Source: Erysipelotrichaceae bacterium
GTDB taxonomy: Bacteria; Bacillota_I; Bacilli_A; Erysipelotrichales; Erysipelotrichaceae
Direction of reading: 5' to 3'
DNA length: 32,000 nucleotides
Assembly: GCA_963676105.1 (NCBI GenBank)
Contig: OY781039.1
Span: 840,001-872,000 of the forward strand
Shown: piece by piece, positions 18,208 through 29,045 of the stretch
How positions within the stretch are numbered: the first letter of the stretch is position 1
How the letters are laid out: the number at the start of each line of letters is the position of its first letter
The notes under the pieces: generated by a model
Seen by the model: only the letters and a program-made list of their open reading frames with translations
Database searches by the model: none
What the model was told of the DNA's origin: nothing
Translations under genes and position numbers: made by a program

Positions 18208-21200
18208 TTATGCGTATTCTTCGTCTTTTTTACGTTTACCTAAAATAAACCAGATAAGTCCTAATAAAGCAACTACGAAAGCTGATCCATAGAAAATAAA
18301 CATATTTGATGATTCTTCAACCACTTCTTCAACAGCTGCGCTGACTTTATCAGCCATAACCGCATAGTAAGATAAGTGATTGATTCTAAATTCTAAGTAA
18401 GCAATACCATCGACATCTACACGTGTGCTTTCAATGACTTGAGTTGTGCCATCTTCAGCAATGTAGACAATTCTATGATTAATATCATTCATTAAACCAT
18501 CAGGAATTGGTAATCGAATAATGAGTTCACCTGTGATATCACTGTTTTCAATCTTAGTTTGTGTCACTGTTCCATCTTTACTTGTGACAGTTTTCAATAG
18601 TGATAAATCATAAACGAAATCAAATGATGTACCATCTTCAGCCATGATTGCGAGTGAATTCTTTACTGAATCATTTAACTTCTCACTACTTACTGTATTT
18701 TCTTCACTGATAAATTCAATGACTACAGACTCTGTGTTTTCATCATTTTCTTCAGGAATTACAACAGCTGTACTGATACCAGCAATTAACGGTTTTGTTG
18801 TAATTGCAGATTGACCACTAATCGTACTTGATCCATCAACATTCTTAGTGACTGTTAAGGATGAGAAGAAACCATTTTCAACTGTTACATCATCTGTGTT
18901 TGTTTCATCAGTTGTGTCAGTTGTATTTGTTGGATTAGTTGTTGTGTTGGCTACAGTTGTAGTTGTTGAAGCTGTTTCAGTTGTTGTCGTTGTACTTGAA
19001 CTTGTATTTGAAACAACTTTTGCATTGACACTTAAACTAGCAACACTTGATGTTAAAGAAATAAATTCATCTTTAAGTGTATTAGTAACAATCGCACGAT
19101 ATTTATAGCCACTCATTGATGTAGTGACATTACTTAAAACGAGTTTATCACTTGTTTCACCAGTGATAGTTGTCCATGTTTCACCACCATCAGTTGAAAC
19201 TTCCCATGCATATGACAATACTCCTTCATCAGGACTTGTCGCATTAGCATAATAAGTAACTGTATTACCTTCTGTTGTTGAAACAACAGGCATTGATTGA
19301 GTAAATTCAGGATATTTAACAGCGACTAAATCTAATGTCGCAACATCAGTCTCAATAACTTCAGTTGTACCGTTTTTTGTGTTTGTAATGACTGCACGAT
19401 ATTGTACTTCATCATCAGCTGTTGTTGGATTAATCGTGTATGTGCTTGATGTTGCGCCAGAAATATCACTCCATGTTGATCCATTTGTTGAATATTGCCA
19501 TTGATAAGTAATTTCACCCTCATCAGTACTTGAAGCTAAGGCAGTAAATGTTACACTTCCACCTAATGTTTCTTTAACACTTTCAGGTTGTGTATCTACT
19601 GTTGGTTCAACTGCAGGAGGATTAACAGTTAATGTAACAATACCAGAAGCTTGTTCTGCGGTTGTTTCATGATATAAATTTGTCGCAACTACTCGGTATT
19701 GATACCCATTCATGTCATATGTCACATCATTTAAGGTTAATTGACTATAGATTGATGGTGTAGCTGTATTATTGTTGATATCTGTTGCACTTGTATCTGA
19801 GAGATCAGTCCAATCAGCAGTAGAAGATGTACGCACTTGCCATACATAAGTAACTGTTCCCATACCTGCACTTTGAATGTTGGCAGTGAATTGTGGATCA
19901 GCCCCAATATTAACTGTAGATGATAGATCATTAATCAAAGAAGTGTATATAGGTTTTGAAGCAGGTGTATGGATATTTAAATAAATTCCATCAGATGCTT
20001 GAACTGCTGTTTTACTTCCTTTTGTATTTGTTACTACTACTCTAAATTGTGCTTGATCCATAAGGTAATTAACACTTGTAAGGTCAAGACTAGAATTAGT
20101 TACACCAGAAACAGTCATTAGTGTATCTGTATCAACTATAAAGTTACCATTACTTAAATCTTTCCATGTATTTACATCCCAATATTGCCATTGATAAGAG
20201 ATTGTGCCTGTATCACTTGCAGGTTTAGACACAATAACATTGTAGCTAATGTCTTTGTTTGGATTTATATAAGTATCATCATTGGATGTATCCGTTAATG
20301 AGTCAATCGTTGGCTTAACAGGATTAATATAGAGTTGAACAACATTTGATGTCACTGAACTCCAGCCATCTGAATCATCACCAACTTCATTGGTAATAAT
20401 GACTCGATAATAATCATTATCATTAGTAGATGTAACATTACTTACGATAAGTTTACTTGGATCAGTCCCTGTATTTTCAACATCAGTCCAATTTGAGTCT
20501 ATATCACATTCAGTTCCATAATCACATACTTGCCATTGATAGGTATAAGTTGTGACAGTTAAATCTTCAACGACAACTTCTAATGTATCTGAATTACCAT
20601 CTAGTTCAGCATAAACATCATTAGGTTGAGTGCTAATAACAGGTAGTTCTGATTTATTAACTGTTAAAGTAACTTCATTAGATACTAGTACTTCACTTGA
20701 ACCATTTTTTGTATTAGTCACAATTACTCTATAGGTACTGTTATTCATTGGATATAAAGCACCTGTAATTGTTAATGTCTGACTTTTGTAACCTGAATAT
20801 ATCGTTCCTGAATTAAGATCATTAATATTTACAAATTCTTCACCATCGAGAATTTGCCATTGATAAGTAATATCTCCATCATCACCTGAAGATGCAATAA
20901 CACTAAAGTTTGTGTCACCTAAGATAGAAACTGTCTTATCCATAGGTTGGTCTTCAGAATTAATAGTAGGAACATAAGTAGATACAGTTAATGTTGCTGA
21001 ACTTGAAGGATAAGTTGTCCAACCATCTGCATCATCACCAACTTCATTGGTAATAAGGACTCTGTATTGACTACCATTATCCCCTGCAGCGACATTGTAA
21101 ATTGTGTATGTACTTGAAGTTTGTCCACTAATATTTGTCCAAACACTGTTAACTAATTTTTGCCATTGATAAGTTATAGTGCCTGAACCTTCAACTGAAA

Positions 21201-23754
21201 CACTGAATGTAGCATTTTCGCCACCCGCAACTTCAGTACTTACAGGATCAAGGTTACCATCAACTTCAGCACTTGTTACTTGAGCTGATTTGTTGACAGT
21301 TAATGAAACAGGATCAGATTCTGTGTCATCGTTAACAACACCATTCTTGGTATTCAAAACAATTACTTTATATAAGTTCCCGTCCATTCCATAGGCTAAT
21401 GAACTAATAGTCAGTGTTGATAAGCCATCAACAAGTGAAACACTGTAGTTTGATCCCTCACTGAGATCAACTTGATTCCATGTTTCACCACTGTTTTCAC
21501 TAACCCACCATTGATAAGAAATAATACCATCATCATCAGATGTTGATTTTGCACTATAACTGACTGAACCTTCAATATCTCCAGTTGCGTCTACAGGATA
21601 TTCACCTGATGTACTACTAATCGAAGGAACTAAAGGATTTAATTTTAATGTAGCAATGCTAGAATCAGCACTATCTCTTGAATCATCACCTAAAGTATTT
21701 GTCACAACTGCATAGTATTGATCGTATTCATTTTCACTTGTAACCACGACTGATAAATCATATGAATCTGTACCTGTTTCAGTCCAAGTATTCCCGTTAT
21801 CCGATGATACAAACCATTGAACACTTTGTGTTCCACCATCATTTATGCTTTCAATTCCTACGCTTAATGTGATTTCTGTTCCACTATCAACAGGTGTAGT
21901 ACTTAGATTTGAATTAAACGTTGGTGTTGTCGCAGGATTAACTGTTAGTGTAGCTGAAGACGTTTCATAGGTAGAATAATTTGTTTCAGATTTTGTATTC
22001 GTAATAACTACGCGATATTTATTATTATTCATCGCATACAATGCATCTGTAATAGATAGGGTTTTAGTCGTAACACCGCTATAAGATGTTGTATTAGGAA
22101 CAGGATTTTCTGTATTAGATAAGGATGACCAACTTGATCCTCCATTTGTAGACATTTGCCATTGATAAGAGATTGAACCGTCAGTATATGTTGATTCATC
22201 GAAAGTGATGCTAAATTGAGTATCACCAAAAATATCTACATTAGCATTTGTAGGACCTGAATCAGACTCAGAAAAACTTGGTTCAGACGCTGGAATGATT
22301 AATTGAGCAGGTACTGAATTTGCAGAGGTTGATGTCTCACCCGTTAAATTGTTATATACAACAACTCGATAATAATGACCATCATTGCTTGAACTTGCGA
22401 CGACTGAATAACTTGTATTTGTTTCACCAGTAATTGTTGACCAATTTTCTCCATCCGTTGATTCTTCCCATTGATAGGTTAAATCTCCACCTTCTGGTGA
22501 ATTAGCCTCAACATTAAACGTTGCAGTTTGACCACTTTGAACAGTTTGGTTCGTTGGATTTGATGAAATAAAAGGATCACGTAAAGGAAGAACCGTTAAA
22601 GTAGCTACATCAGATGTTGATTCAGCTGTGCTATCATTCCCTGCTGTTGCCGTTACAATGACACGATATTGATAACCATCCATTGAAGAAGTAACATCAG
22701 TCAAACTCAATGTACGAGTCGTATAGTTTGAGTATTTTGAATTGTCTGTTAAATCTTTTATAAATGTCCAATCATTAGAATCAGCTGTACAACTGTCACC
22801 TGTGGTACATATTTGCCATTCATATGATAAATCTTCACTGCTGTTTATAGCACTAGCATCGACACCAAAACTTGGATCAGCATTGATTAGTACGCTTTTA
22901 TCTTCTGGTGTTCCACTTGTTAAAGTAGGTGCAGTTGCATTATAGCGAATAATGGCTGTATCACTTGCGGATTCTCCATCAATAACACGTGTTATCACAG
23001 CTTTGATATCATCAAAACGGAAATCAGTGTATAAACTATTGTAATCAAAATAAGTATAACTACCTACTTTTTTTGTTTGTAATGTTAGAGACGATTTTAC
23101 AAAAGCATACCCATCACCTGATACAAAAGTTGGATTTGTATCTTCATAAATTTTCTCATAGGTAACATAATTATCACCATCGTCGATATAACTTACATAC
23201 CAATTAACTGTATATTCTAAATTCGCATAGGCACCTATTTGCAAATATGCATCAAATGTTACATCACTATACGTTTCACTAGCATCAACATAACGATCAC
23301 TCATAGAAGTATCCATAAATTGAAGTGGTACAACCGTTAAAGTGGCTGCATTAGATTCAACTGTATTACTATCCACTGAATTACCAATAACAACTTTGTA
23401 TTGGTAATTATTCAAGGTGTAATTTATTGAACTTACACTTAATGTATTTGTTGTGTAGTTGGAGTAGGTGGATCCAGCATTACTTGAAGTAATATCTACC
23501 CATCCATTAGTTCCATCGTTTACTTGCCATTGATATGTTAGAGTTTGACCACTTACCAATGAGTTTGCACCAACATAAAAAGTACGATTACTTCCTGTGG
23601 ATACGTTTGATTGACTAATTGGATCTGAATAAATTTCCACCCACTCATTTGTCACAAGTGCTGTAACGCCTAAAACAAAATTGTTGTTAAAGCTTGTTAT
23701 AAGCATTAAGACTGTTAATAGCTTAATAAAAAATCGATTAAACCTTTCTTTCAT
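18208..23754 (-). CDS. Giant (1848 aa) secreted surface protein: signal peptide, ~14 Ig-like YQWQ domains, Ser/Thr linker, C-terminal domain, single C-terminal TM anchor
   Basis: N-terminal signal MKERFNRFFIKLLTVLMLITSF. A recurring ~105-aa unit (..TYQWQ..W..I/L....Y(R/K)V(V/I)(V/I)TN....ATLTVN). S/T-rich linker at 18889-19011. C-terminal MFIFYGSAFVVALLGLIWFILGKRKKDEEYA with no LPXTG. Confidence 0.85.
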   Translation of the reverse strand: MKERFNRFFIKLLTVLMLITSFNNNFVLGVTALVTNEWVEIYSDPISQSNVSTGSNRTFYVGANSLVSGQTLTYQWQVNDGTNGWVDITSSNAGSTYSNYTTNTLSVSSINYTLNNYQYKVVIGNSVDSNTVESNAATLTVVPLQFMDTSMSDRYVDASETYSDVTFDAYLQIGAYANLEYTVNWYVSYIDDGDNYVTYEKIYEDTNPTFVSGDGYAFVKSSLTLQTKKVGSYTYFDYNSLYTDFRFDDIKAVITRVIDGESASDTAIIRYNATAPTLTSGTPEDKSVLINADPSFGVDASAINSSEDLSYEWQICTTGDSCTADSNDWTFIKDLTDNSKYSNYTTRTLSLTDVTSSMDGYQYRVIVTATAGNDSTAESTSDVATLTVLPLRDPFISSNPTNQTVQSGQTATFNVEANSPEGGDLTYQWEESTDGENWSTITGETNTSYSVVASSSNDGHYYRVVVYNNLTGETSTSANSVPAQLIIPASEPSFSESDSGPTNANVDIFGDTQFSITFDESTYTDGSISYQWQMSTNGGSSWSSLSNTENPVPNTTSYSGVTTKTLSITDALYAMNNNKYRVVITNTKSETNYSTYETSSATLTVNPATTPTFNSNLSTTPVDSGTEITLSVGIESINDGGTQSVQWFVSSDNGNTWTETGTDSYDLSVVVTSENEYDQYYAVVTNTLGDDSRDSADSSIATLKLNPLVPSISSTSGEYPVDATGDIEGSVSYSAKSTSDDDGIISYQWWVSENSGETWNQVDLSEGSNYSVSLVDGLSTLTISSLAYGMDGNLYKVIVLNTKNGVVNDDTESDPVSLTVNKSAQVTSAEVDGNLDPVSTEVAGGENATFSVSVEGSGTITYQWQKLVNSVWTNISGQTSSTYTIYNVAAGDNGSQYRVLITNEVGDDADGWTTYPSSSATLTVSTYVPTINSEDQPMDKTVSILGDTNFSVIASSGDDGDITYQWQILDGEEFVNINDLNSGTIYSGYKSQTLTITGALYPMNNSTYRVIVTNTKNGSSEVLVSNEVTLTVNKSELPVISTQPNDVYAELDGNSDTLEVVVEDLTVTTYTYQWQVCDYGTECDIDSNWTDVENTGTDPSKLIVSNVTSTNDNDYYRVIITNEVGDDSDGWSSVTSNVVQLYINPVKPTIDSLTDTSNDDTYINPNKDISYNVIVSKPASDTGTISYQWQYWDVNTWKDLSNGNFIVDTDTLMTVSGVTNSSLDLTSVNYLMDQAQFRVVVTNTKGSKTAVQASDGIYLNIHTPASKPIYTSLINDLSSTVNIGADPQFTANIQSAGMGTVTYVWQVRTSSTADWTDLSDTSATDINNNTATPSIYSQLTLNDVTYDMNGYQYRVVATNLYHETTAEQASGIVTLTVNPPAVEPTVDTQPESVKETLGGSVTFTALASSTDEGEITYQWQYSTNGSTWSDISGATSSTYTINPTTADDEVQYRAVITNTKNGTTEVIETDVATLDLVAVKYPEFTQSMPVVSTTEGNTVTYYANATSPDEGVLSYAWEVSTDGGETWTTITGETSDKLVLSNVTTSMSGYKYRAIVTNTLKDEFISLTSSVASLSVNAKVVSNTSSSTTTTTETASTTTTVANTTTNPTNTTDTTDETNTDDVTVENGFFSSLTVTKNVDGSSTISGQSAITTKPLIAGISTAVVIPEENDENTESVVIEFISEENTVSSEKLNDSVKNSLAIMAEDGTSFDFVYDLSLLKTVTSKDGTVTQTKIENSDITGELIIRLPIPDGLMNDINHRIVYIAEDGTTQVIESTRVDVDGIAYLEFRINHLSYYAVMADKVSAAVEEVVEESSNMFIFYGSAFVVALLGLIWFILGKRKKDEEYA
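19012..23637 (-). repeat. Array of ~14 diverged Ig-like domain repeats (period ~320 bp) inside the giant gene
   Basis: The plus-strand motif ttgccattgata (the reverse complement of tatcaatggcaa, which encodes Y-Q-W-Q) and close variants recur at about 19.50, 20.19, 20.53, 20.86, 21.17, 21.51, 22.16, 22.47 and 23.53 kb. The repeats are diverged at the DNA level. Confidence 0.8.
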
Positions 23755-25311: not shown

Positions 25312-26283
25312 ATGAGAGTCGCTGTTGTTGGCGCAACTGGAATGGTTGGGCAAAGCTTTATTAAAGTATTAGAAGAATATGATTTAAAAATGGAAAAGAT
25401 TCGTTTCTTTTCTAGCGCAAGATCTGCAGGTAAAGTGATTAGCTTTAAAGGTGAAGATCATACCGTATTAGAACTAAACGAAAATAGTTTTGATGAAGGT
25501 TTTGATTACGCTTTATTCTCAGCAGGTGGTGATACTTCAAAGCAGTTTGCACCGATTGCAGCTGAAAAAGGCTGTATCGTCATTGATAATTCTTCTGCAT
25601 GGCGTATGGATGATACAGTTCCGTTAATTGTGCCTGAAGTTAACCCAGAAGCTTTAAAAGATCATCATAATATTATTGCGAATCCTAACTGTTCAACGAT
25701 TCAATGTATGTTGCCTTTAAATGCTTTAAAACCATTCGGAATTAAACGTGTGGTTTATTCTACATATCAAGCGGTTGCTGGTTCTGGATATAAAGGGGTT
25801 CAAGATCTACAAAATAACTTAGAAGGCAAAGAAAGTACTTTATACCCTACTCAAATCTTACATAACGTGATTCCTCATATTGATGTCTTTTTAGAAAATG
25901 GAAATACCAAAGAAGAAGAAAAGATGATAAATGAAACACGTAAGATTTTAAATTTAAAAGACTTACCAGTTAGCGCAACATGTGTACGTGTCCCTGTCTT
26001 TATTGGTCACTCTGTTTCAATTAATGTCGAATTTGAAAAAGACTTTACAATGGATGAAGTACTGAGTGCTTTAAATAAACAAAAAGGCATGAAAGTTTAT
26101 GAAGGAACTGACTACCCTACTCCTCTAGAGTGTGAGGGGATTGATACAACCTTAGTCGGTAGAGTAAGACGTGATTCATCAGTAAAATCAGGACTTAACT
26201 TATGGGTGGTAGCGGATAATATCCGTAAAGGTGCGGCAAGTAATGCTGTACAAATCTTAAAAGTATTTGAAAATATTGATTAG
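25312..26283 (+). CDS. asd: Aspartate-semialdehyde dehydrogenase
   Basis: Rossmann MRVAVVGATGMVGQ, active-site IANPNCSTIQ, C-terminal DNIRKGAASNAVQI. SD AAGGAGA. Confidence 0.92.
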   Translation: MRVAVVGATGMVGQSFIKVLEEYDLKMEKIRFFSSARSAGKVISFKGEDHTVLELNENSFDEGFDYALFSAGGDTSKQFAPIAAEKGCIVIDNSSAWRMDDTVPLIVPEVNPEALKDHHNIIANPNCSTIQCMLPLNALKPFGIKRVVYSTYQAVAGSGYKGVQDLQNNLEGKESTLYPTQILHNVIPHIDVFLENGNTKEEEKMINETRKILNLKDLPVSATCVRVPVFIGHSVSINVEFEKDFTMDEVLSALNKQKGMKVYEGTDYPTPLECEGIDTTLVGRVRRDSSVKSGLNLWVVADNIRKGAASNAVQILKVFENID

Positions 26284-26289
26284 TTTATA

Positions 26290-26320
26290 AAGGGTATGTT
26301 AGAAATGACATACTTTTTTA
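26290..26320 (+). terminator. Rho-independent terminator of lysA-asd
   Basis: aagGGTATGTtagaaatgACATACtttttt: a 6-bp core stem that extends with G.U pairs, followed by T6. Confidence 0.65.
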
Positions 26321-26337
26321 TTTATTCAAAATAGAAA

Positions 26338-26366
26338 TTGCACGAAATATCTTCAAGTGTTATGAT
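26338..26366 (+). promoter_or_regulatory. Candidate promoter of the hicA-hicB-secB-like operon (TTGCAC-17-TATGAT)
   Basis: -35 at 26338-26343, -10 at 26361-26366. Confidence 0.55.
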
Positions 26367-26374
26367 AATGACAT

Positions 26375-26402
26375 ATTATGACACTATATTTGGTGTCATA
26401 AT
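26375..26402 (+). promoter_or_regulatory. Perfect 10-8-10 palindrome, candidate HicB (RHH) operator
   Basis: ATTATGACAC-tatatttg-GTGTCATAAT lies between the -10 and the SD (GGGGGA). An extra half-site-like ATGACA sits at 26368-26373. Confidence 0.55.
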
Positions 26403-26420
26403 AAAATTATTAGGGGGATT

Positions 26421-26690
26421 ATGGGTTCTAATTCGAAACTTATTAAGAAAATTCTAAGGAAAGAGACTCCTAGTGATATAACAATAGATGAATTAGATCG
26501 GCTTTTGATTTATCTTGGGTTCGTATTACAAACTCAAAACAGTTCACACAGAAACTACAAACACCAGGGTTTAACTTACCTATTAACAATAGCTACTCAC
26601 GGCAATAAGTCACAAGTATTAAAAATATATATTAAAAATACAAAGAAAGCCTTTCAAGAATTAGGAATAAATGGAGAGAGTACACGATGA
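26421..26690 (+). CDS. hicA: HicA-family mRNA interferase toxin
   Basis: ..ITIDELDRLLIYLGFVLQTQNSSHRNYKH..LTIATHGNKSQVLKIYIKNTKKAFQELGI matches the HicA pattern (GF.L.R..GSH..Y.H ... HG.K.L....L..IL...G). Confidence 0.75.
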   Translation: MGSNSKLIKKILRKETPSDITIDELDRLLIYLGFVLQTQNSSHRNYKHQGLTYLLTIATHGNKSQVLKIYIKNTKKAFQELGINGESTR

Positions 26691-27205
26691 ATTACAAAAT
26701 GATAATATACAAAATGGATAATGGAGATGGATTAGACTTTGTTGCGGAGTACCCTGCACTAAAAGGCGTTTCAGGCGTTGGAACAAATCCTCAAGAAGCT
26801 ATTGAAAGTCTAGAGCTAAGCGCAAAATTCAATATTGATGCATTAAAAGAAGCAGGTTTGCCTATCCCTGAAGAAGATGCTTATATTGAAGACGATTATA
26901 GCGGAAAAGTTACTTTAAGACTTTCAAAAGGACTTCATCGTAAAGTATCGGATATAGCAAATAATCAAGGGATTAGTCTTAATCAATATTTAAATGAAGC
27001 AATTTCTTCTTATTCAAGTGTCCAAGTATTTGAAAATCAACTGGTTAATAAAACATTTGATTTTATTCTATTATCCACATCAACAAATTTTAAGACTTTT
27101 GACTTTTTTACAAGTACAGAAAAGTTTACAAATGAATATTCAAACAATAACCCAAATTTATTCCCATTAGAACAGGAGTTCAGTCATGACAAATATACCT
27201 GCTAG
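26687..27205 (+). CDS. hicB: HicB-family antitoxin (HicB N-domain plus RHH DNA-binding domain) with a ~60-aa C-terminal extension
   Basis: FVAEYPALKGVSGVGTNPQEAIESLELSAKFNIDALKEAGLPIPEE is the HicB-like domain. YSGKVTLRLSKGLHRKVSDIANNQGISLNQYLNEAIS is the ribbon-helix-helix. The tail contains NKTFDF..FKTFDFF. ATGA overlap with hicA. Confidence 0.8.
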   Translation: MNYKMIIYKMDNGDGLDFVAEYPALKGVSGVGTNPQEAIESLELSAKFNIDALKEAGLPIPEEDAYIEDDYSGKVTLRLSKGLHRKVSDIANNQGISLNQYLNEAISSYSSVQVFENQLVNKTFDFILLSTSTNFKTFDFFTSTEKFTNEYSNNNPNLFPLEQEFSHDKYTC

Positions 27206-27617
27206 GCCTAAATTACACTTCGAAAATGTAAATATAAAAATAAAAGATATTAACTATCAAAGTTTAGATTCAAAAATTCCAAATGGTAAGATAATTCTTA
27301 ATGATAAATATGATATCGAATCCATTTCTAAAAAAGAAATCTTAATGTATGTTCAAAGAACAGTTACCACTGATCCAAATAAAATTTTTGAATTAAAAGT
27401 AAAAATTGAGCTAAAATTACCATTAAACCAAAAAGATCATAAATTTGATGGATCAATTGAAGAGCTCAGAGAATATATTAAAAAAAATGTTCTCATCATC
27501 ATTAATAATAGTAGTTGTATGCAAACAGTCAGTTTGTTAATTTCACAAATCACATCAGCTTATGCAAGAGTACCAGTCATAACTCCACCTAATTTCATTT
27601 CTAACATTTCTAAATAG
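27186..27617 (+). CDS. SecB-like chaperone candidate (third gene of the module)
   Basis: By-eye alignment to E. coli SecB: HFENVNIKIKDINYQ vs FQIQRIYTKDISFE; YVQRTVTT vs VLRVTVTA; C-terminal SAYARVPVITPPNFISN vs SRGTFPQLNLAPVNFDAL. Similar size (143 aa). SD AGGAG. 20-nt overlap with hicB. Confidence 0.55.
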   Translation: MTNIPARPKLHFENVNIKIKDINYQSLDSKIPNGKIILNDKYDIESISKKEILMYVQRTVTTDPNKIFELKVKIELKLPLNQKDHKFDGSIEELREYIKKNVLIIINNSSCMQTVSLLISQITSAYARVPVITPPNFISNISK

Positions 27618-27635
27618 ATATATATGACTTAAACT

Positions 27636-27658
27636 AGCCTAGATTTCTAGGCTTTTTA
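27636..27658 (+). terminator. Rho-independent terminator of the three-gene module
   Basis: AGCCTAG-attt-CTAGGCT followed by TTTTTAT. Confidence 0.75.
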
Positions 27659-27695
27659 TAAGTCTTTGTTGTACAATAGTCTATAGGTTTAAACT

Positions 27696-29045
27696 ATGTT
27701 TCAAACAATACTTAAAAAATTTCAGAATACCCTTCTGTTTCTATTAGCCTTGATTACATATGCCACAATCTTTGGAAGTTTTATGTGGATTTTTCATTAT
27801 GCTTATCCAGAGCTTCTTATGCAAACCCGTGAAGCTGCCGTGGTATCCATTACTTATGTCTTAACCTTTGGACTAATGTTGAATGCCTATGGTGGTTTTG
27901 ATGTCGGTGAGAAACAAACACGACAGATTATTTACTCACTCATTATTGTGACCTTTATCGCTGATATCTTTGCTTATGTGGTGATTCAAATTACCAATCC
28001 AAGCATTTGGAATATTTGGCAATTTGGTTTTTATTCCATACGTCGTTTAGTCTTTACTTATGTGATTCAAGTTGTTTTGATTATTGCCTTAACATATTTA
28101 GGAAATAAACTTTACTTTAAAATTAACAAGCCCAAGAAAACTTTAATCATTCATGCCTTTGATACAAAACCAAATCGTATTGTAAAGAAGATAAAAAGTA
28201 ACACCTATAAATATGAATTAACGGATGTGATTGATGATACTAATGTAATGACATGCAAAGAGTTGATAGATCAAAATGAAGTGATTGTTTTATATAACAT
28301 TCCAAAGGATGAGCGTATTCAATTCAATGAATATGGGTATAAAGCTAATAAAATTGTTTTATATAATGCTGAAATCATGGATGTGGTTGAATTTAGAAGT
28401 AAACATGTGATGATGGATGATTTATCCTTATTTACCACTAATATCTCTGATTTCACGATGGAACAAAGAATATTAAAACGAGTTTTAGATTTAATTGTAG
28501 CCATTGTTGGTTTAGTGATTAGTTCGCCTTTTTGGTTGATTTTTACAATTGCGATTAAATTAGAAGATAAAGGGCCTGTCTTCTTTAAACAAAAGAGAAT
28601 GACAAAGAATAATAAAGTTTTTGAAGTTTATAAATTTAGAACGATGCGTGTCAATGCTGAAGCGAATAAGTCAGCCATGAAAGATGATGATCGTATTACA
28701 AAAGTGGGTAATATCTTACGTAAAATTCGTTTAGATGAATTACCACAAATATTAAATATTCTTAAAGGTGATATGTCAGTGGTTGGCCCACGTCCTGAAA
28801 TGTTAGCGAATGTGACTAAGTACACCAAAGAAATGCCTGAATTTGAGCTTCGTTTACGTGCAAAAGCTGGATTAACCGGCTATGCACAAATCTATGGGAA
28901 ATATAATACATCGCCTAAAGATAAGTTAATCATGGATCTTATGTATATCGAAAACTATAGTATTTGGTTAGATATTAAACTCATCCTTCAAACCGTTATG
29001 GTCTTTTTAAAGATTGATGATAGTACGGAAGGTTTTGATGACTAA
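27696..29045 (+). CDS. Polyprenyl-phosphate hexose-1-phosphate transferase (WbaP/CpsE-like initiating sugar transferase)
   Basis: Four to five N-terminal TM helices and a C-terminal bacterial sugar-transferase domain: RVLDLIVAIVGLVISSPFWL..KGPVFFKQKRMTKNNKVFEVYKFRTM..DDRITKVGNILRKIRLDELPQILNILKGDMSVVGPRPE. Confidence 0.88.
   Translation: MFQTILKKFQNTLLFLLALITYATIFGSFMWIFHYAYPELLMQTREAAVVSITYVLTFGLMLNAYGGFDVGEKQTRQIIYSLIIVTFIADIFAYVVIQITNPSIWNIWQFGFYSIRRLVFTYVIQVVLIIALTYLGNKLYFKINKPKKTLIIHAFDTKPNRIVKKIKSNTYKYELTDVIDDTNVMTCKELIDQNEVIVLYNIPKDERIQFNEYGYKANKIVLYNAEIMDVVEFRSKHVMMDDLSLFTTNISDFTMEQRILKRVLDLIVAIVGLVISSPFWLIFTIAIKLEDKGPVFFKQKRMTKNNKVFEVYKFRTMRVNAEANKSAMKDDDRITKVGNILRKIRLDELPQILNILKGDMSVVGPRPEMLANVTKYTKEMPEFELRLRAKAGLTGYAQIYGKYNTSPKDKLIMDLMYIENYSIWLDIKLILQTVMVFLKIDDSTEGFDD

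What the first reader, a model, noticed from the sequence alone, without database searches (positions are those of the whole stretch)
26338..27658. hicA - hicB(with C-terminal extension) - secB-like: a tripartite toxin-antitoxin-chaperone (TAC) module of the HicAB type
Seen: a self-contained three-gene unit has its own promoter (TTGCAC-17-TATGAT), a perfect palindromic operator and a terminator. It sits between a biosynthetic pair (lysA-asd) and a glycan cluster. The genes are translationally coupled (ATGA overlap at 26687-26690; 20-nt overlap at 27186-27205). Gene 1 has the HicA pattern (LGFVLQTQNSSHRNYKH ... THGNK..LKIYIKNTKKAFQELGI). Gene 2 has the HicB N-domain plus an RHH and an unusual tail of about 60 aa. 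Gene 3 (143 aa) would normally be called hypothetical but aligns by eye with SecB at three landmark segments: HFENVNIKIKDINYQ / FQIQRIYTKDISFE; YVQRTVTT / VLRVTVTA; ARVPVITPPNF / PQLNLAPVNF. Established: in the M. tuberculosis HigB1-HigA1-Rv1957 TAC system, a SecB-like chaperone must bind a C-terminal chaperone-addiction extension of the antitoxin to keep it soluble and active. TAC-type operons have been reported for the HigBA, MqsRA and HicAB families, mostly outside low-GC Gram-positives, and few have been tested. Inference: this is an uncharacterised HicAB-TAC in which HicA RNase activity is gated by chaperone availability, a possible link to secretion or proteotoxic stress or to phage defence.
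Basis: partly seen in the sequence, partly recalled or inferred. Interest (0 to 1): 0.8.

Follow-up and report, generated by a model that had tools for sequence, protein, structure and literature searches.

The report
HicA-HicB toxin-antitoxin with SecB-fold chaperone
This is a three-gene toxin-antitoxin-chaperone cassette of a known kind (HicA toxin, HicB antitoxin with an extra tail, SecB-shaped helper), but the helper belongs to an unannotated protein family of Gram-positive bacteria that standard sequence models do not recognise as SecB.

Summary
Three overlapping genes lie at 26421-27617 behind a promoter-like site and an 11-nt perfect palindrome, and end at a terminator hairpin. They sit between lysA-asd and a glycan cluster.

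Gene 1 is HicA-like with the catalytic His present. Gene 2 is HicB: N-domain, RHH, and a 62-aa tail. Gene 3 has no hit in Pfam, NCBIfam, PADLOC or PHROGs, and sequence profiles do not link it to SecB. A confident AlphaFold model (pLDDT 92) finds only SecB-superfamily structures as its top PDB matches: E. coli SecB at TM 0.66/0.71, and the M. tuberculosis TAC chaperone Rv1957 at about 0.6.

Gene 3 belongs to a family of at least 232 clusters. All named members are "hypothetical" and all named hosts are Bacillota. In 9 of 10 informative loci it directly follows hicA-hicB, and that HicB always carries a 47-68 aa hypervariable tail.

HicAB-type TACs are already known and one has been tested (Methylomonas, 2016), so this is a new variant, a minimal sequence-divergent chaperone lineage, and not a new kind. 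Chaperone dependence, toxicity and any phage-defence role are untested.

The parts
26289..26318 (+). Hairpin plus T run just after the asd stop (AAAGGGTATGT / ACATACTTTTT). It is probably the asd terminator and the upstream boundary of the module.
   Evidence: Inverted repeat I2; sequence.
26338..26366 (+). Promoter-like site: TTGCAC, 17-nt spacer, TATGAT, with TG at 26358-59 (extended -10).
   Evidence: Read from sequence. Not listed by the consensus scan because the -35 matches 3 of 6.
26365..26403 (.). Operator-like repeats: perfect 11-nt inverted repeat TATTATGACAC-N8-GTGTCATAATA (26374-84 / 26393-403) plus a third half-site ATAATGACA (26365-73) overlapping the -10. Presumed binding site of the HicB RHH domain.
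   Evidence: 10 of 2000 shuffles reach 11 pairs. Palindromes also lie just upstream of hicA in L002, L012, L016, L020 and L024.
26421..26690 (+). hicA-like toxin gene (89 aa). The SSH motif at residues 41-43 aligns with the catalytic GSH of solved HicA.
   Evidence: Pfam HicA_toxin E 5.8e-6, 26.8 bits against a cutoff of 27. PHROG toxin families at 9e-8 and 5e-5. The family profile finds HicA structures 5yrz, 1whz, 4c26 and 6g26. Closest relatives pass Pfam's cutoff.
26687..27016 (+). [quoted passage not shown]
   Evidence: Pfam HicB PF05534, residues 69-106, 40.7 bits against a cutoff of 21. PHROG HicB-like over residues 1-107. The profile finds RHH proteins and B. pseudomallei HicB.
27017..27205 (+). 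hicB C-terminal extension, residues 111-172 plus stop. It is 19% aromatic and 40% S/T/N/Q, with two copies of a KTFDF-like motif. Candidate chaperone-addiction (ChAD) region.
   Evidence: It is 14% identical to the L002 tail, while the HicB core is 65% and the chaperone 53% identical.
27174..27178 (+). AGGAG ribosome-binding site for the chaperone gene, inside the hicB tail coding region, 7 nt before the ATG.
27186..27617 (+). Chaperone gene (143 aa) with a SecB-like fold: beta1-beta4, helices, then a conserved extended P-rich segment (SLLISQITS..G..P.ITPP). It has no alpha2 helix.
   Evidence: AlphaFold pLDDT 92, pTM 0.84. Foldseek PDB: 1qyn TM 0.66/0.71, 5mtw about 0.6. Viral matches annotated SecB. 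Family of at least 232 clusters. Conservation profile.
27636..27658 (+). Intrinsic terminator: hairpin AGCCTAGA-tt-TCTAGGCT followed by TTTTTAT.

Best explanation
The locus is a tripartite toxin-antitoxin-chaperone (TAC) operon of the HicAB type. One transcript starts at the promoter-like site at 26338-66 and ends at the hairpin at 27636-53. It encodes the HicA toxin (by family, an mRNA-cleaving RNase), the HicB antitoxin and a small chaperone with a SecB-like fold, and the three genes are translationally coupled by overlaps. HicB neutralises HicA through its N-terminal domain and represses the operon through its RHH domain at the palindrome. Its 62-residue aromatic-rich C-terminal tail makes it unstable or aggregation-prone unless the chaperone binds that tail. 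When the chaperone is titrated away or depleted, for example by unfolded client proteins or by phage proteins, HicB is degraded and HicA is released. Shown here: the gene architecture, the family assignments of HicA and HicB, the SecB-like fold of gene 3, the conserved synteny, and the presence and hypervariability of the tail. Inferred: binding of the tail by the chaperone, tetramer formation, protease sensitivity, toxicity, and the trigger.
For: (1) Fold. With a confident model (pLDDT 92), the 23 best PDB matches are all SecB-superfamily chains. They include E. coli SecB (TM 0.66/0.71, rmsd 3.0 A) and Rv1957 in complex with its ChAD peptide. The next fold class, hotdog thioesterases, reaches only TM 0.2-0.3. 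The top viral matches are annotated SecB. (2) Synteny. Family members sampled from E 1e-40 to 2e-5 sit directly after hicA-hicB in 9 of 10 informative loci, usually overlapping hicB. (3) Tail. Every chaperone-linked HicB has 47-68 residues beyond the RHH. The tail is 14% identical between the window and L002, against 65% for the core. This matches published ChAD regions, described as highly variable in length and composition (PMC5105189). A close HicB relative without a chaperone gene has only a 19-aa tail (L026). (4) Conservation in the chaperone family peaks in alpha1 and the segment after it (2.2-2.3 bits against 1.3-1.6 in the strands). The equivalent region is the main ChAD-binding spot in Rv1957 (PMC6377645). 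(5) Precedent. A HicAB-SecB TAC from Methylomonas methanica is chaperone-dependent in vivo, with the same gene order and an RHH-type HicB.
Against: No sequence method links gene 3 to SecB. None of 141 family members hits Pfam PF02556, even at E <= 10, and the family profile finds no SecB among PDB sequences. hhalign against a broad SecB profile gives P 0.011, but an unrelated HicB profile scores better. The model lacks the C-terminal alpha2 helix of canonical SecB. The tail's aromatic-plus-basic enrichment is weak and inconsistent across loci. One two-gene relative (L025) has a 47-aa tail and no chaperone gene, so a tail alone does not prove addiction. One family member (L021) follows an ftsY-like gene instead of hicB. 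No complex prediction or experiment was possible.
Confidence: 0.75

Rival explanations
1. Same three-part machine, but its biological role is anti-phage abortive infection. The chaperone acts as the sensor: a newly made phage structural protein competes the chaperone away from the HicB tail, HicB is degraded, and HicA destroys mRNA. This is a rival about role and trigger, not about architecture.
For: CmdTAC and HigBAC work this way in E. coli (PMC11618068; bioRxiv 10.1101/2024.02.24.581848). Related loci lie in defence or mobile contexts: L023 between hsdM and hsdS of a type I R-M system, L016 and L018 in prophage-like regions with integrase, cI-like repressor, holin and lysin, L024 near an integrase, and L001-L003 next to transposases. 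The module appears strain-specific: its three proteins are singleton clusters while housekeeping neighbours cluster at >=90% identity with a sister genome.
Against: The window's own context is housekeeping (lysA-asd and a glycan cluster), with no neighbouring defence genes. There are no PADLOC hits and no flanking direct repeats. No phage data exist for this family.
Confidence: 0.35
2. Gene 3 is a SecB-fold protein that is co-transcribed with hicAB but does not chaperone HicB. For example, it could be a general holding or export chaperone of Bacillota, or a factor acting on HicA (folding helper or second inhibitor).
For: A family member occurs without hicAB next to an ftsY-like gene (L021). 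In CmdTAC other components also help fold the toxin. There is no direct evidence here for tail binding.
Against: Gene 3 is linked to hicB in 9 of 10 loci, with overlaps that imply coupled translation. The extra tail is always on HicB, not on HicA. SecB-like proteins in all characterised TA contexts act on the antitoxin extension.
Confidence: 0.1
3. Gene 3 resembles SecB in fold by convergence, and the family is evolutionarily unrelated to SecB. The system would then be an analogue of TAC, not a member.
For: Sequence identity to SecB structures is 8-13%. There is no profile-level signal above controls. The alpha2 helix is missing.
Against: The full beta1-4 plus alpha1 plus extended-segment topology is matched in order over about 135 columns. 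Accepted SecB-like TAC chaperones are themselves only 14-19% identical to each other, and E. coli SecB does not detect Rv1957 by phmmer. Viral structural neighbours at 16-21% identity carry SecB annotations. The functional context is the same.
Confidence: 0.12

Closest known systems
Mmet-TAC of Methylomonas methanica MC09 (HicA Metme_2813 / HicB Metme_2812 / SecB-TA). The experimentally validated HicAB-type TAC (Bordes et al. 2016, PMC5105189).
   Same: Gene order is toxin-antitoxin-chaperone. The TA pair is of the HicAB family, and TAC HicBs are RHH-type (Sala 2013). The antitoxin has a C-terminal extension beyond the DNA-binding domain: 41 aa there, 62 aa here. The chaperone has a SecB fold.
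   Different: The Mmet chaperone was found through Pfam PF02556, and the family here does not hit that model. The host is a gammaproteobacterium there and Bacillota here. The chaperone here is shorter (143 aa) and lacks alpha2.
M. tuberculosis HigB1-HigA1-Rv1957 TAC (PDB 5mtw).
   Same: It is among the best structural matches for gene 3 (TM about 0.6). The chaperone has beta1-4, a long alpha1 and an extended segment after alpha1 that forms the main ChAD-binding spot. The equivalent region is the most conserved part of the family here.
   Different: The TA family is HigBA, not HicAB. Identity is 8%. Rv1957 is 181 aa with an N-terminal helix, a long beta3-beta4 loop and a C-terminal region. Rv1957 can partly replace SecB in export, and nothing suggests that here.
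Canonical export chaperone SecB (E. coli 1qyn, H. influenzae 1fx3; Pfam PF02556).
   Same: Fold and topology. It gives the best TM-score (0.66/0.71, rmsd 3.0 A over 135 columns).
   Different: Identity is 11-13% with no HMM match. There is no alpha2 helix or acidic C-terminus. The gene sits in a TA operon and is not solitary. The hosts are Bacillota, which are not known to have a SecB-dependent export pathway.
CmdTAC and HigBAC anti-phage TAC systems of E. coli.
   Same: Three-gene T-A-C logic with a SecB-like chaperone protecting a labile antitoxin. Relatives of the present module lie in prophage and R-M contexts.
   Different: The toxins differ (ADP-ribosyltransferase, HigB). Phage defence is shown experimentally there and is untested here.
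SP1558 / DUF1149-type SecB-like fold proteins of streptococci (PDB 2hng, 2o2a).
   Same: Bacillota proteins with a SecB-like fold. They appear among the Foldseek matches.
   Different: The structural match is much weaker (TM 0.38-0.43, rmsd above 8 A). There is no Pfam match of the family to that model. As far as I recall, those proteins are solitary and not TA-linked.

Membership tests
TAC (toxin-antitoxin-chaperone) system | Three co-oriented genes in the order toxin, antitoxin, chaperone, in one operon. | tested here: met
   Overlapping ORFs 26421-27617 between a promoter-like site and a terminator. The same order is found in 9 related loci.
TAC (toxin-antitoxin-chaperone) system | A type II TA pair of a recognised family (HigBA, MqsRA or HicAB). 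| tested here: met
   HicB passes Pfam's cutoff (40.7 against 21). HicA scores 26.8 against 27, with catalytic His, PHROG toxin hits and profile hits to solved HicA structures.
TAC (toxin-antitoxin-chaperone) system | The third protein has the SecB fold. | tested here: met
   pLDDT-92 model. The top 23 PDB matches are all SecB superfamily, with TM up to 0.66/0.71.
TAC (toxin-antitoxin-chaperone) system | The third protein is recognisably homologous to SecB by sequence (Pfam PF02556, the criterion used in the original survey). | tested here: not met
   0 of 141 family members hit PF02556 at E <= 10. hhalign gives P 0.011, which is not above an unrelated control.
TAC (toxin-antitoxin-chaperone) system | The antitoxin carries a variable C-terminal extension (ChAD) that two-gene homologues lack. 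| tested here: met
   A 62-aa tail follows the RHH, and tails are 47-68 aa in all 9 chaperone-linked HicBs, 14% identical where the core is 65%. Chaperone-less L026 has a 19-aa tail. L025 is an exception, with a 47-aa acidic tail and no chaperone.
TAC (toxin-antitoxin-chaperone) system | The antitoxin depends on the chaperone for stability and toxin neutralisation, and the chaperone binds the extension. | not testable with these tools
   This needs co-expression and rescue assays, or at least a multimer prediction.
SecB (Pfam PF02556, canonical export chaperone) | HMM match at or above the gathering score. | tested here: not met
SecB (Pfam PF02556, canonical export chaperone) | C-terminal alpha2 helix and acidic tail, and an acidic beta-sheet patch for SecA binding. 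| tested here: not met
   The model ends in an extended segment after alpha1 with no further helix, and the protein stops 8 residues after the ITPP motif. The acidic patch could not be assessed without a residue-level structural alignment.
SecB (Pfam PF02556, canonical export chaperone) | Dimer-of-dimers tetramer. | not tested
   No multimer prediction was available.
HicA toxin (PF07927) | HMM match, and the conserved catalytic histidine in the G-S-H motif. | tested here: inconclusive
   The score of 26.8 bits is 0.2 below the cutoff. His43 in SSH aligns with GSH of S. pneumoniae HicA. The close relative L025 scores 30.3 bits. On balance it is a member, but the formal threshold is narrowly missed.
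HicB antitoxin (PF05534, RHH type) | HMM match, with an N-terminal HicB domain followed by a DNA-binding RHH. | tested here: met
DUF1149 / SP1558-like SecB-fold proteins | Close structural and profile similarity to 2hng or 2o2a. | tested here: not met
   TM 0.38-0.43 and rmsd above 8 A. No Pfam match.

The most novel reading that the evidence does not exclude
The chaperone family is a Bacillota-specific, minimal SecB-fold lineage that current TAC surveys and defence-system detectors miss because they rely on the SecB sequence model. It would serve as a phage- or proteotoxic-stress sensor that gates HicA RNase activity, often from prophages as a superinfection-exclusion module. Its solitary members, such as the one beside ftsY, would hint at a so far unrecognised SecB-like holding chaperone in bacteria thought to lack SecB.
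Probability: 0.25. Interest if true: 0.65.

Novelty: new variant of a known kind. Interest (0 to 1): 0.45.

Why it matters
TAC systems have been catalogued mainly by searching for the SecB sequence model, and mostly in Proteobacteria and Actinobacteria. This locus shows that a whole family (at least 232 clusters at 50% identity, all labelled hypothetical where named) plays the same structural role behind HicAB in Bacillota and is invisible to Pfam, NCBIfam, PADLOC and PHROGs. Adding it would extend TAC detection to Gram-positive genomes and prophages. It would also provide a very small SecB-fold chaperone (about 140 aa, no alpha2) for studying how chaperone addiction works. Because TACs have recently been shown to sense phage capsid proteins, it also offers candidate defence modules for gut and anaerobic-digester Firmicutes. 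It does not change the concept, since HicAB-TACs are known and one has been validated.

Tried and rejected
Single-sequence searches of ORF3 against Pfam, NCBIfam, PADLOC, PHROGs and PDB sequences found nothing.

The family profile against PDB sequences found nothing relevant.

The Pfam scan of 141 members at E <= 0.01 and at E <= 10 gave no SecB and no DUF1149.

hhalign of the family against E. coli SecB alone, a narrow enterobacterial profile, and Rv1957 alone gave probabilities below 0.3%.

hhalign against a broad 14-sequence SecB profile gave a co-linear 75-column alignment with P 0.011. I reject it as evidence because the unrelated HicB alignment scored higher.

The search for related loci with the large alignments failed for lack of a conserved stretch. 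With a small alignment it returned only the known MAG.

tblastn of ORF3 and of P0100 against the phage and plasmid collections found no match.

A search for flanking direct repeats as an insertion signature found none bracketing the module.

An Rfam scan of 26000-28000 found nothing meaningful.

Tail composition (aromatic plus basic) as a ChAD signature was too weak and inconsistent to use.

I considered and rejected the 39-aa TTG ORF at 26338-26457 and the short antisense ORFs as genes. They overlap the promoter and operator or the coding regions and have no support.
Full report
**What is in the sequence**

Genes 1 and 2 overlap by ATGA. Genes 2 and 3 overlap by 20 nt, and an AGGAG lies 7 nt before the gene-3 ATG.

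- **Upstream boundary.** The asd stop is followed by a hairpin and T run (26289-26318).
- **Promoter-like site.** TTGCAC, a 17-nt spacer and TATGAT follow, with a TG that makes an extended -10. The consensus scanner skipped it because the -35 matches only 3 of 6.
- **Operator-like repeats.** From the -10 onward lies an 11-nt perfect inverted repeat with an 8-nt spacer (26374-84 / 26393-403), plus a third half-site. Only 10 of 2000 shuffles of the 137-nt intergenic region reach 11 perfect pairs.
- **Terminator.** A hairpin with a T tail closes the unit at 27636-58.
- **Flanks.** These are a LysA-type decarboxylase and Asd upstream, and Bac_transf, Alg14-like and GT28 genes downstream.
- **Composition.** GC falls to about 0.25 over the tail and chaperone region, against 0.30-0.36 in the flanks.
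- **Negative checks.** No direct repeats bracket the unit and no Rfam family matches.

**Genes 1 and 2**

Gene 1 hits Pfam HicA_toxin at E 5.8e-6. Its 26.8 bits are just below the gathering score of 27. It also hits two PHROG toxin families. A profile of nine orthologues finds the solved HicA structures 5yrz, 1whz, 4c26 and 6g26, and the window's SSH aligns with the catalytic GSH. The closest relatives pass Pfam's cutoff.

Gene 2 passes the Pfam HicB cutoff through its RHH region, residues 69-106. It matches a PHROG HicB-like family over residues 1-107. Its family profile finds RHH proteins and B. pseudomallei HicB. The folded part therefore ends near residue 110, which leaves a 62-residue tail. 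The tail is 19% aromatic and 40% S/T/N/Q and carries two KTFDF-like motifs, which are conserved in a 74%-identical homologue.

**Gene 3**

As a single sequence it hits nothing in Pfam, NCBIfam, PADLOC, PHROGs or PDB sequences. The word-indexed search found only one other cluster, at 54% identity, from an Erysipelotrichaceae MAG. An exhaustive HMMER search with the two-sequence profile found 232 clusters at E <= 1e-3, nearly all 130-150 aa.

- **Structure.** With a 141-sequence alignment, AlphaFold gives pLDDT 92 and pTM 0.84: four antiparallel strands, helices, then an extended segment.
- **PDB fold matches.** The top 23 chains in Foldseek all belong to the SecB superfamily. E. coli SecB gives TM 0.66/0.71 at 3.0 A, and H. 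influenzae SecB and Rv1957 bound to its ChAD peptide give about 0.6. Streptococcal SecB-like proteins match more weakly. The next fold class, hotdog thioesterases, has TM 0.2-0.3. The earlier low-confidence model gave the same ranking.
- **Viral fold matches.** In the viral library the best matches are phage proteins annotated SecB, at 16-21% identity.
- **Conclusion.** The SecB fold is well supported.

**Sequence-level relationship to SecB**

This is not demonstrable with the tools at hand.

- None of 141 family members hits PF02556, even at E <= 10.
- The family profile finds no SecB in the PDB.
- hhalign against single SecB or Rv1957 sequences, or against a narrow SecB profile, gives nothing beyond a 13-16 column match on beta1.
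- I built a broader SecB profile from 12 diverse proteobacterial SecBs. It gave a co-linear 75-column alignment, ORF3 51-136 against E. coli 57-131. That alignment covers beta3, beta4, alpha1 and the P-rich segment after alpha1, with P 0.011.
- Column-shuffled controls never reached that score (0 of 40), but the unrelated HicB alignment scored higher. I do not count this alignment as evidence.

E. coli SecB also fails to detect Rv1957 by phmmer, and accepted TAC chaperones share only 14-19% identity. Lack of sequence signal is therefore normal within this superfamily.

**Conserved gene order**

I sampled family members across the whole E-value range. hicA-hicB-chaperone is found in:

- the window;
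- L001-L008 (P0002);
- L012 (P0008);
- L016 (P0050);
- L018 (P0100);
- L020 (P0140);
- L022 (P0070);
- L023 (P0120);
- L024 (P0147).

In L018 and L020 the gene caller missed hicA, but the ORFs are there and pass Pfam. A partial contig, L015, shows a HicB RHH plus tail upstream.

The one exception is L021, where the family member follows the 3' end of an SRP54-type GTPase gene, FtsY-like.

The chaperone-linked HicBs are 157-178 aa, with 47-68 residues beyond the RHH. Between the window and L002, identities are HicA 48%, HicB core 65%, chaperone 53% and tail 14%. Within the same HicB clade, a lone hicB without a chaperone has a 19-aa tail (L026). A two-gene hicAB has a 47-aa tail that is acidic and poor in aromatics (L025). 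Palindromes just upstream of hicA recur in five of the eight related loci examined (L002, L012, L016, L020, L024), with sequences that differ between subgroups.

**Mechanism**

The best explanation is a HicAB-type TAC, and the steps are marked by how well each is supported.

- **By family, not tested here.** HicA is an RNase toxin. HicB neutralises it and autoregulates through the RHH at the palindrome.
- **Inferred from published systems.** The HicB tail makes HicB chaperone-dependent. The SecB-fold protein binds the tail and protects HicB from aggregation and proteolysis. Loss or titration of the chaperone frees HicA. These steps are demonstrated for Mtb HigBA1-Rv1957, for the Methylomonas HicAB-TAC, and for CmdTAC and HigBAC.
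- **Supporting detail.** The most conserved part of the chaperone family is alpha1 plus the following SLLISQITS..G..P.ITPP segment. In Rv1957 the residues after alpha1 form the strongest ChAD-binding spot.
- **Context.** Several relatives lie in prophage-like regions, beside integrases or transposases, or inside a type I R-M operon. The window's module consists of singleton clusters, while neighbouring housekeeping proteins cluster at >=90% identity with a sister genome. This fits a mobile accessory element and makes a phage-defence role plausible but unproven.

**Comparison with what is known**

TAC systems with HigBA, MqsRA and HicAB pairs were catalogued in 2013 using Pfam PF02556, and all HicBs found there were RHH-type. 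A HicAB-TAC was shown to be chaperone-dependent in 2016. SecB-like TAC chaperones in Firmicutes have also been noted, such as the Lactiplantibacillus garii MqsRA-like system used as a query.

The architecture here is therefore known. Three things differ. The chaperone lineage fails the sequence criterion. It lacks alpha2 and is about 140 aa. It is annotated only as hypothetical, in Erysipelotrichaceae, Tissierellia and Anaerovoracaceae. I file it as working like a TAC and as a structural member of the SecB-like superfamily. I do not file it as a member of Pfam SecB.

**Verdict**

It is a new variant of a known kind, of moderate interest. The main gaps are a complex prediction for the tail and chaperone, an HHpred-grade homology test, and toxicity and rescue experiments.

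Noticed in passing
L021:3-642 (ENA ERZ28616845 scaffold_43137): A member of the chaperone family (P0030, 128 aa) is not linked to hicAB. It follows the 3' end of an SRP54-type GTPase gene (FtsY-like) whose product carries an extra acidic tail of about 30 aa. This may be a solitary SecB-fold chaperone in a protein-targeting context.
   Followed up: partly
L012:2290-2511, L016:1705-1968, L018:1762-2019, L020:1729-2001, L024:115-360, L023:1271-1531: In most chaperone-linked relatives the HicA catalytic G-S-H motif reads G-S-R (G-S-C in L023), although the proteins pass Pfam HicA. The window and L002 keep the His. It is not known whether these variants are active RNases.
   Followed up: partly
L023:1-4242 (GCA_051648965.1, Anaerovoracaceae MAG): The hicA-hicB-chaperone triad is inserted between hsdM-like methyltransferase genes and an hsdS specificity gene of a type I restriction-modification system, which is a typical defence-island arrangement.
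   Followed up: no
L016:79-5417 and L018:280-5432: The triad lies in prophage-like regions: next to a cI-like S24 repressor and an integrase in L016, and between an integrase and a holin plus GH25 lysin cassette in L018.
   Followed up: no
L025:114-904 and L026:1498-1893: Close HicB relatives (43-58% identity in the core) exist without a chaperone gene. One is a two-gene hicAB whose HicB has a 47-aa acidic tail, and the other is a lone hicB with a 19-aa tail and no hicA.
   Followed up: partly
window 27017-27205 (HicB residues 111-172): The tail contains two copies of a KTFDF-like aromatic motif (NKTFDFIL and FKTFDFFT). Both are conserved in the 74%-identical homologue P0274, as is the C-terminal NLFPLEQEF.H.KYTC, whose coding DNA also carries the chaperone gene's RBS and start.
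   Followed up: partly
window 26421-27617 versus the rest of the window: HicA, HicB and the chaperone are singleton 90% clusters. LysA and four other housekeeping proteins of the window share clusters with a second genome-sized contig of 1,948,504 bp. The module therefore appears absent from, or strongly diverged in, the closest sequenced relative.
   Followed up: partly
window 18208-23754 (- strand): A 1848-aa ORF with immunoglobulin-like domain hits (Ig_3, I-set) lies upstream of lysA. It is probably a large surface protein.
   Followed up: no
alignments A2 and A7: hhalign without secondary-structure scoring gives the unrelated pair of chaperone family and HicB family a better score (26.0, P 9e-4) than chaperone family against SecB (20.3). 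For these low-GC, compositionally biased proteins, P values near 0.01 from hhalign should not be trusted.
   Followed up: yes
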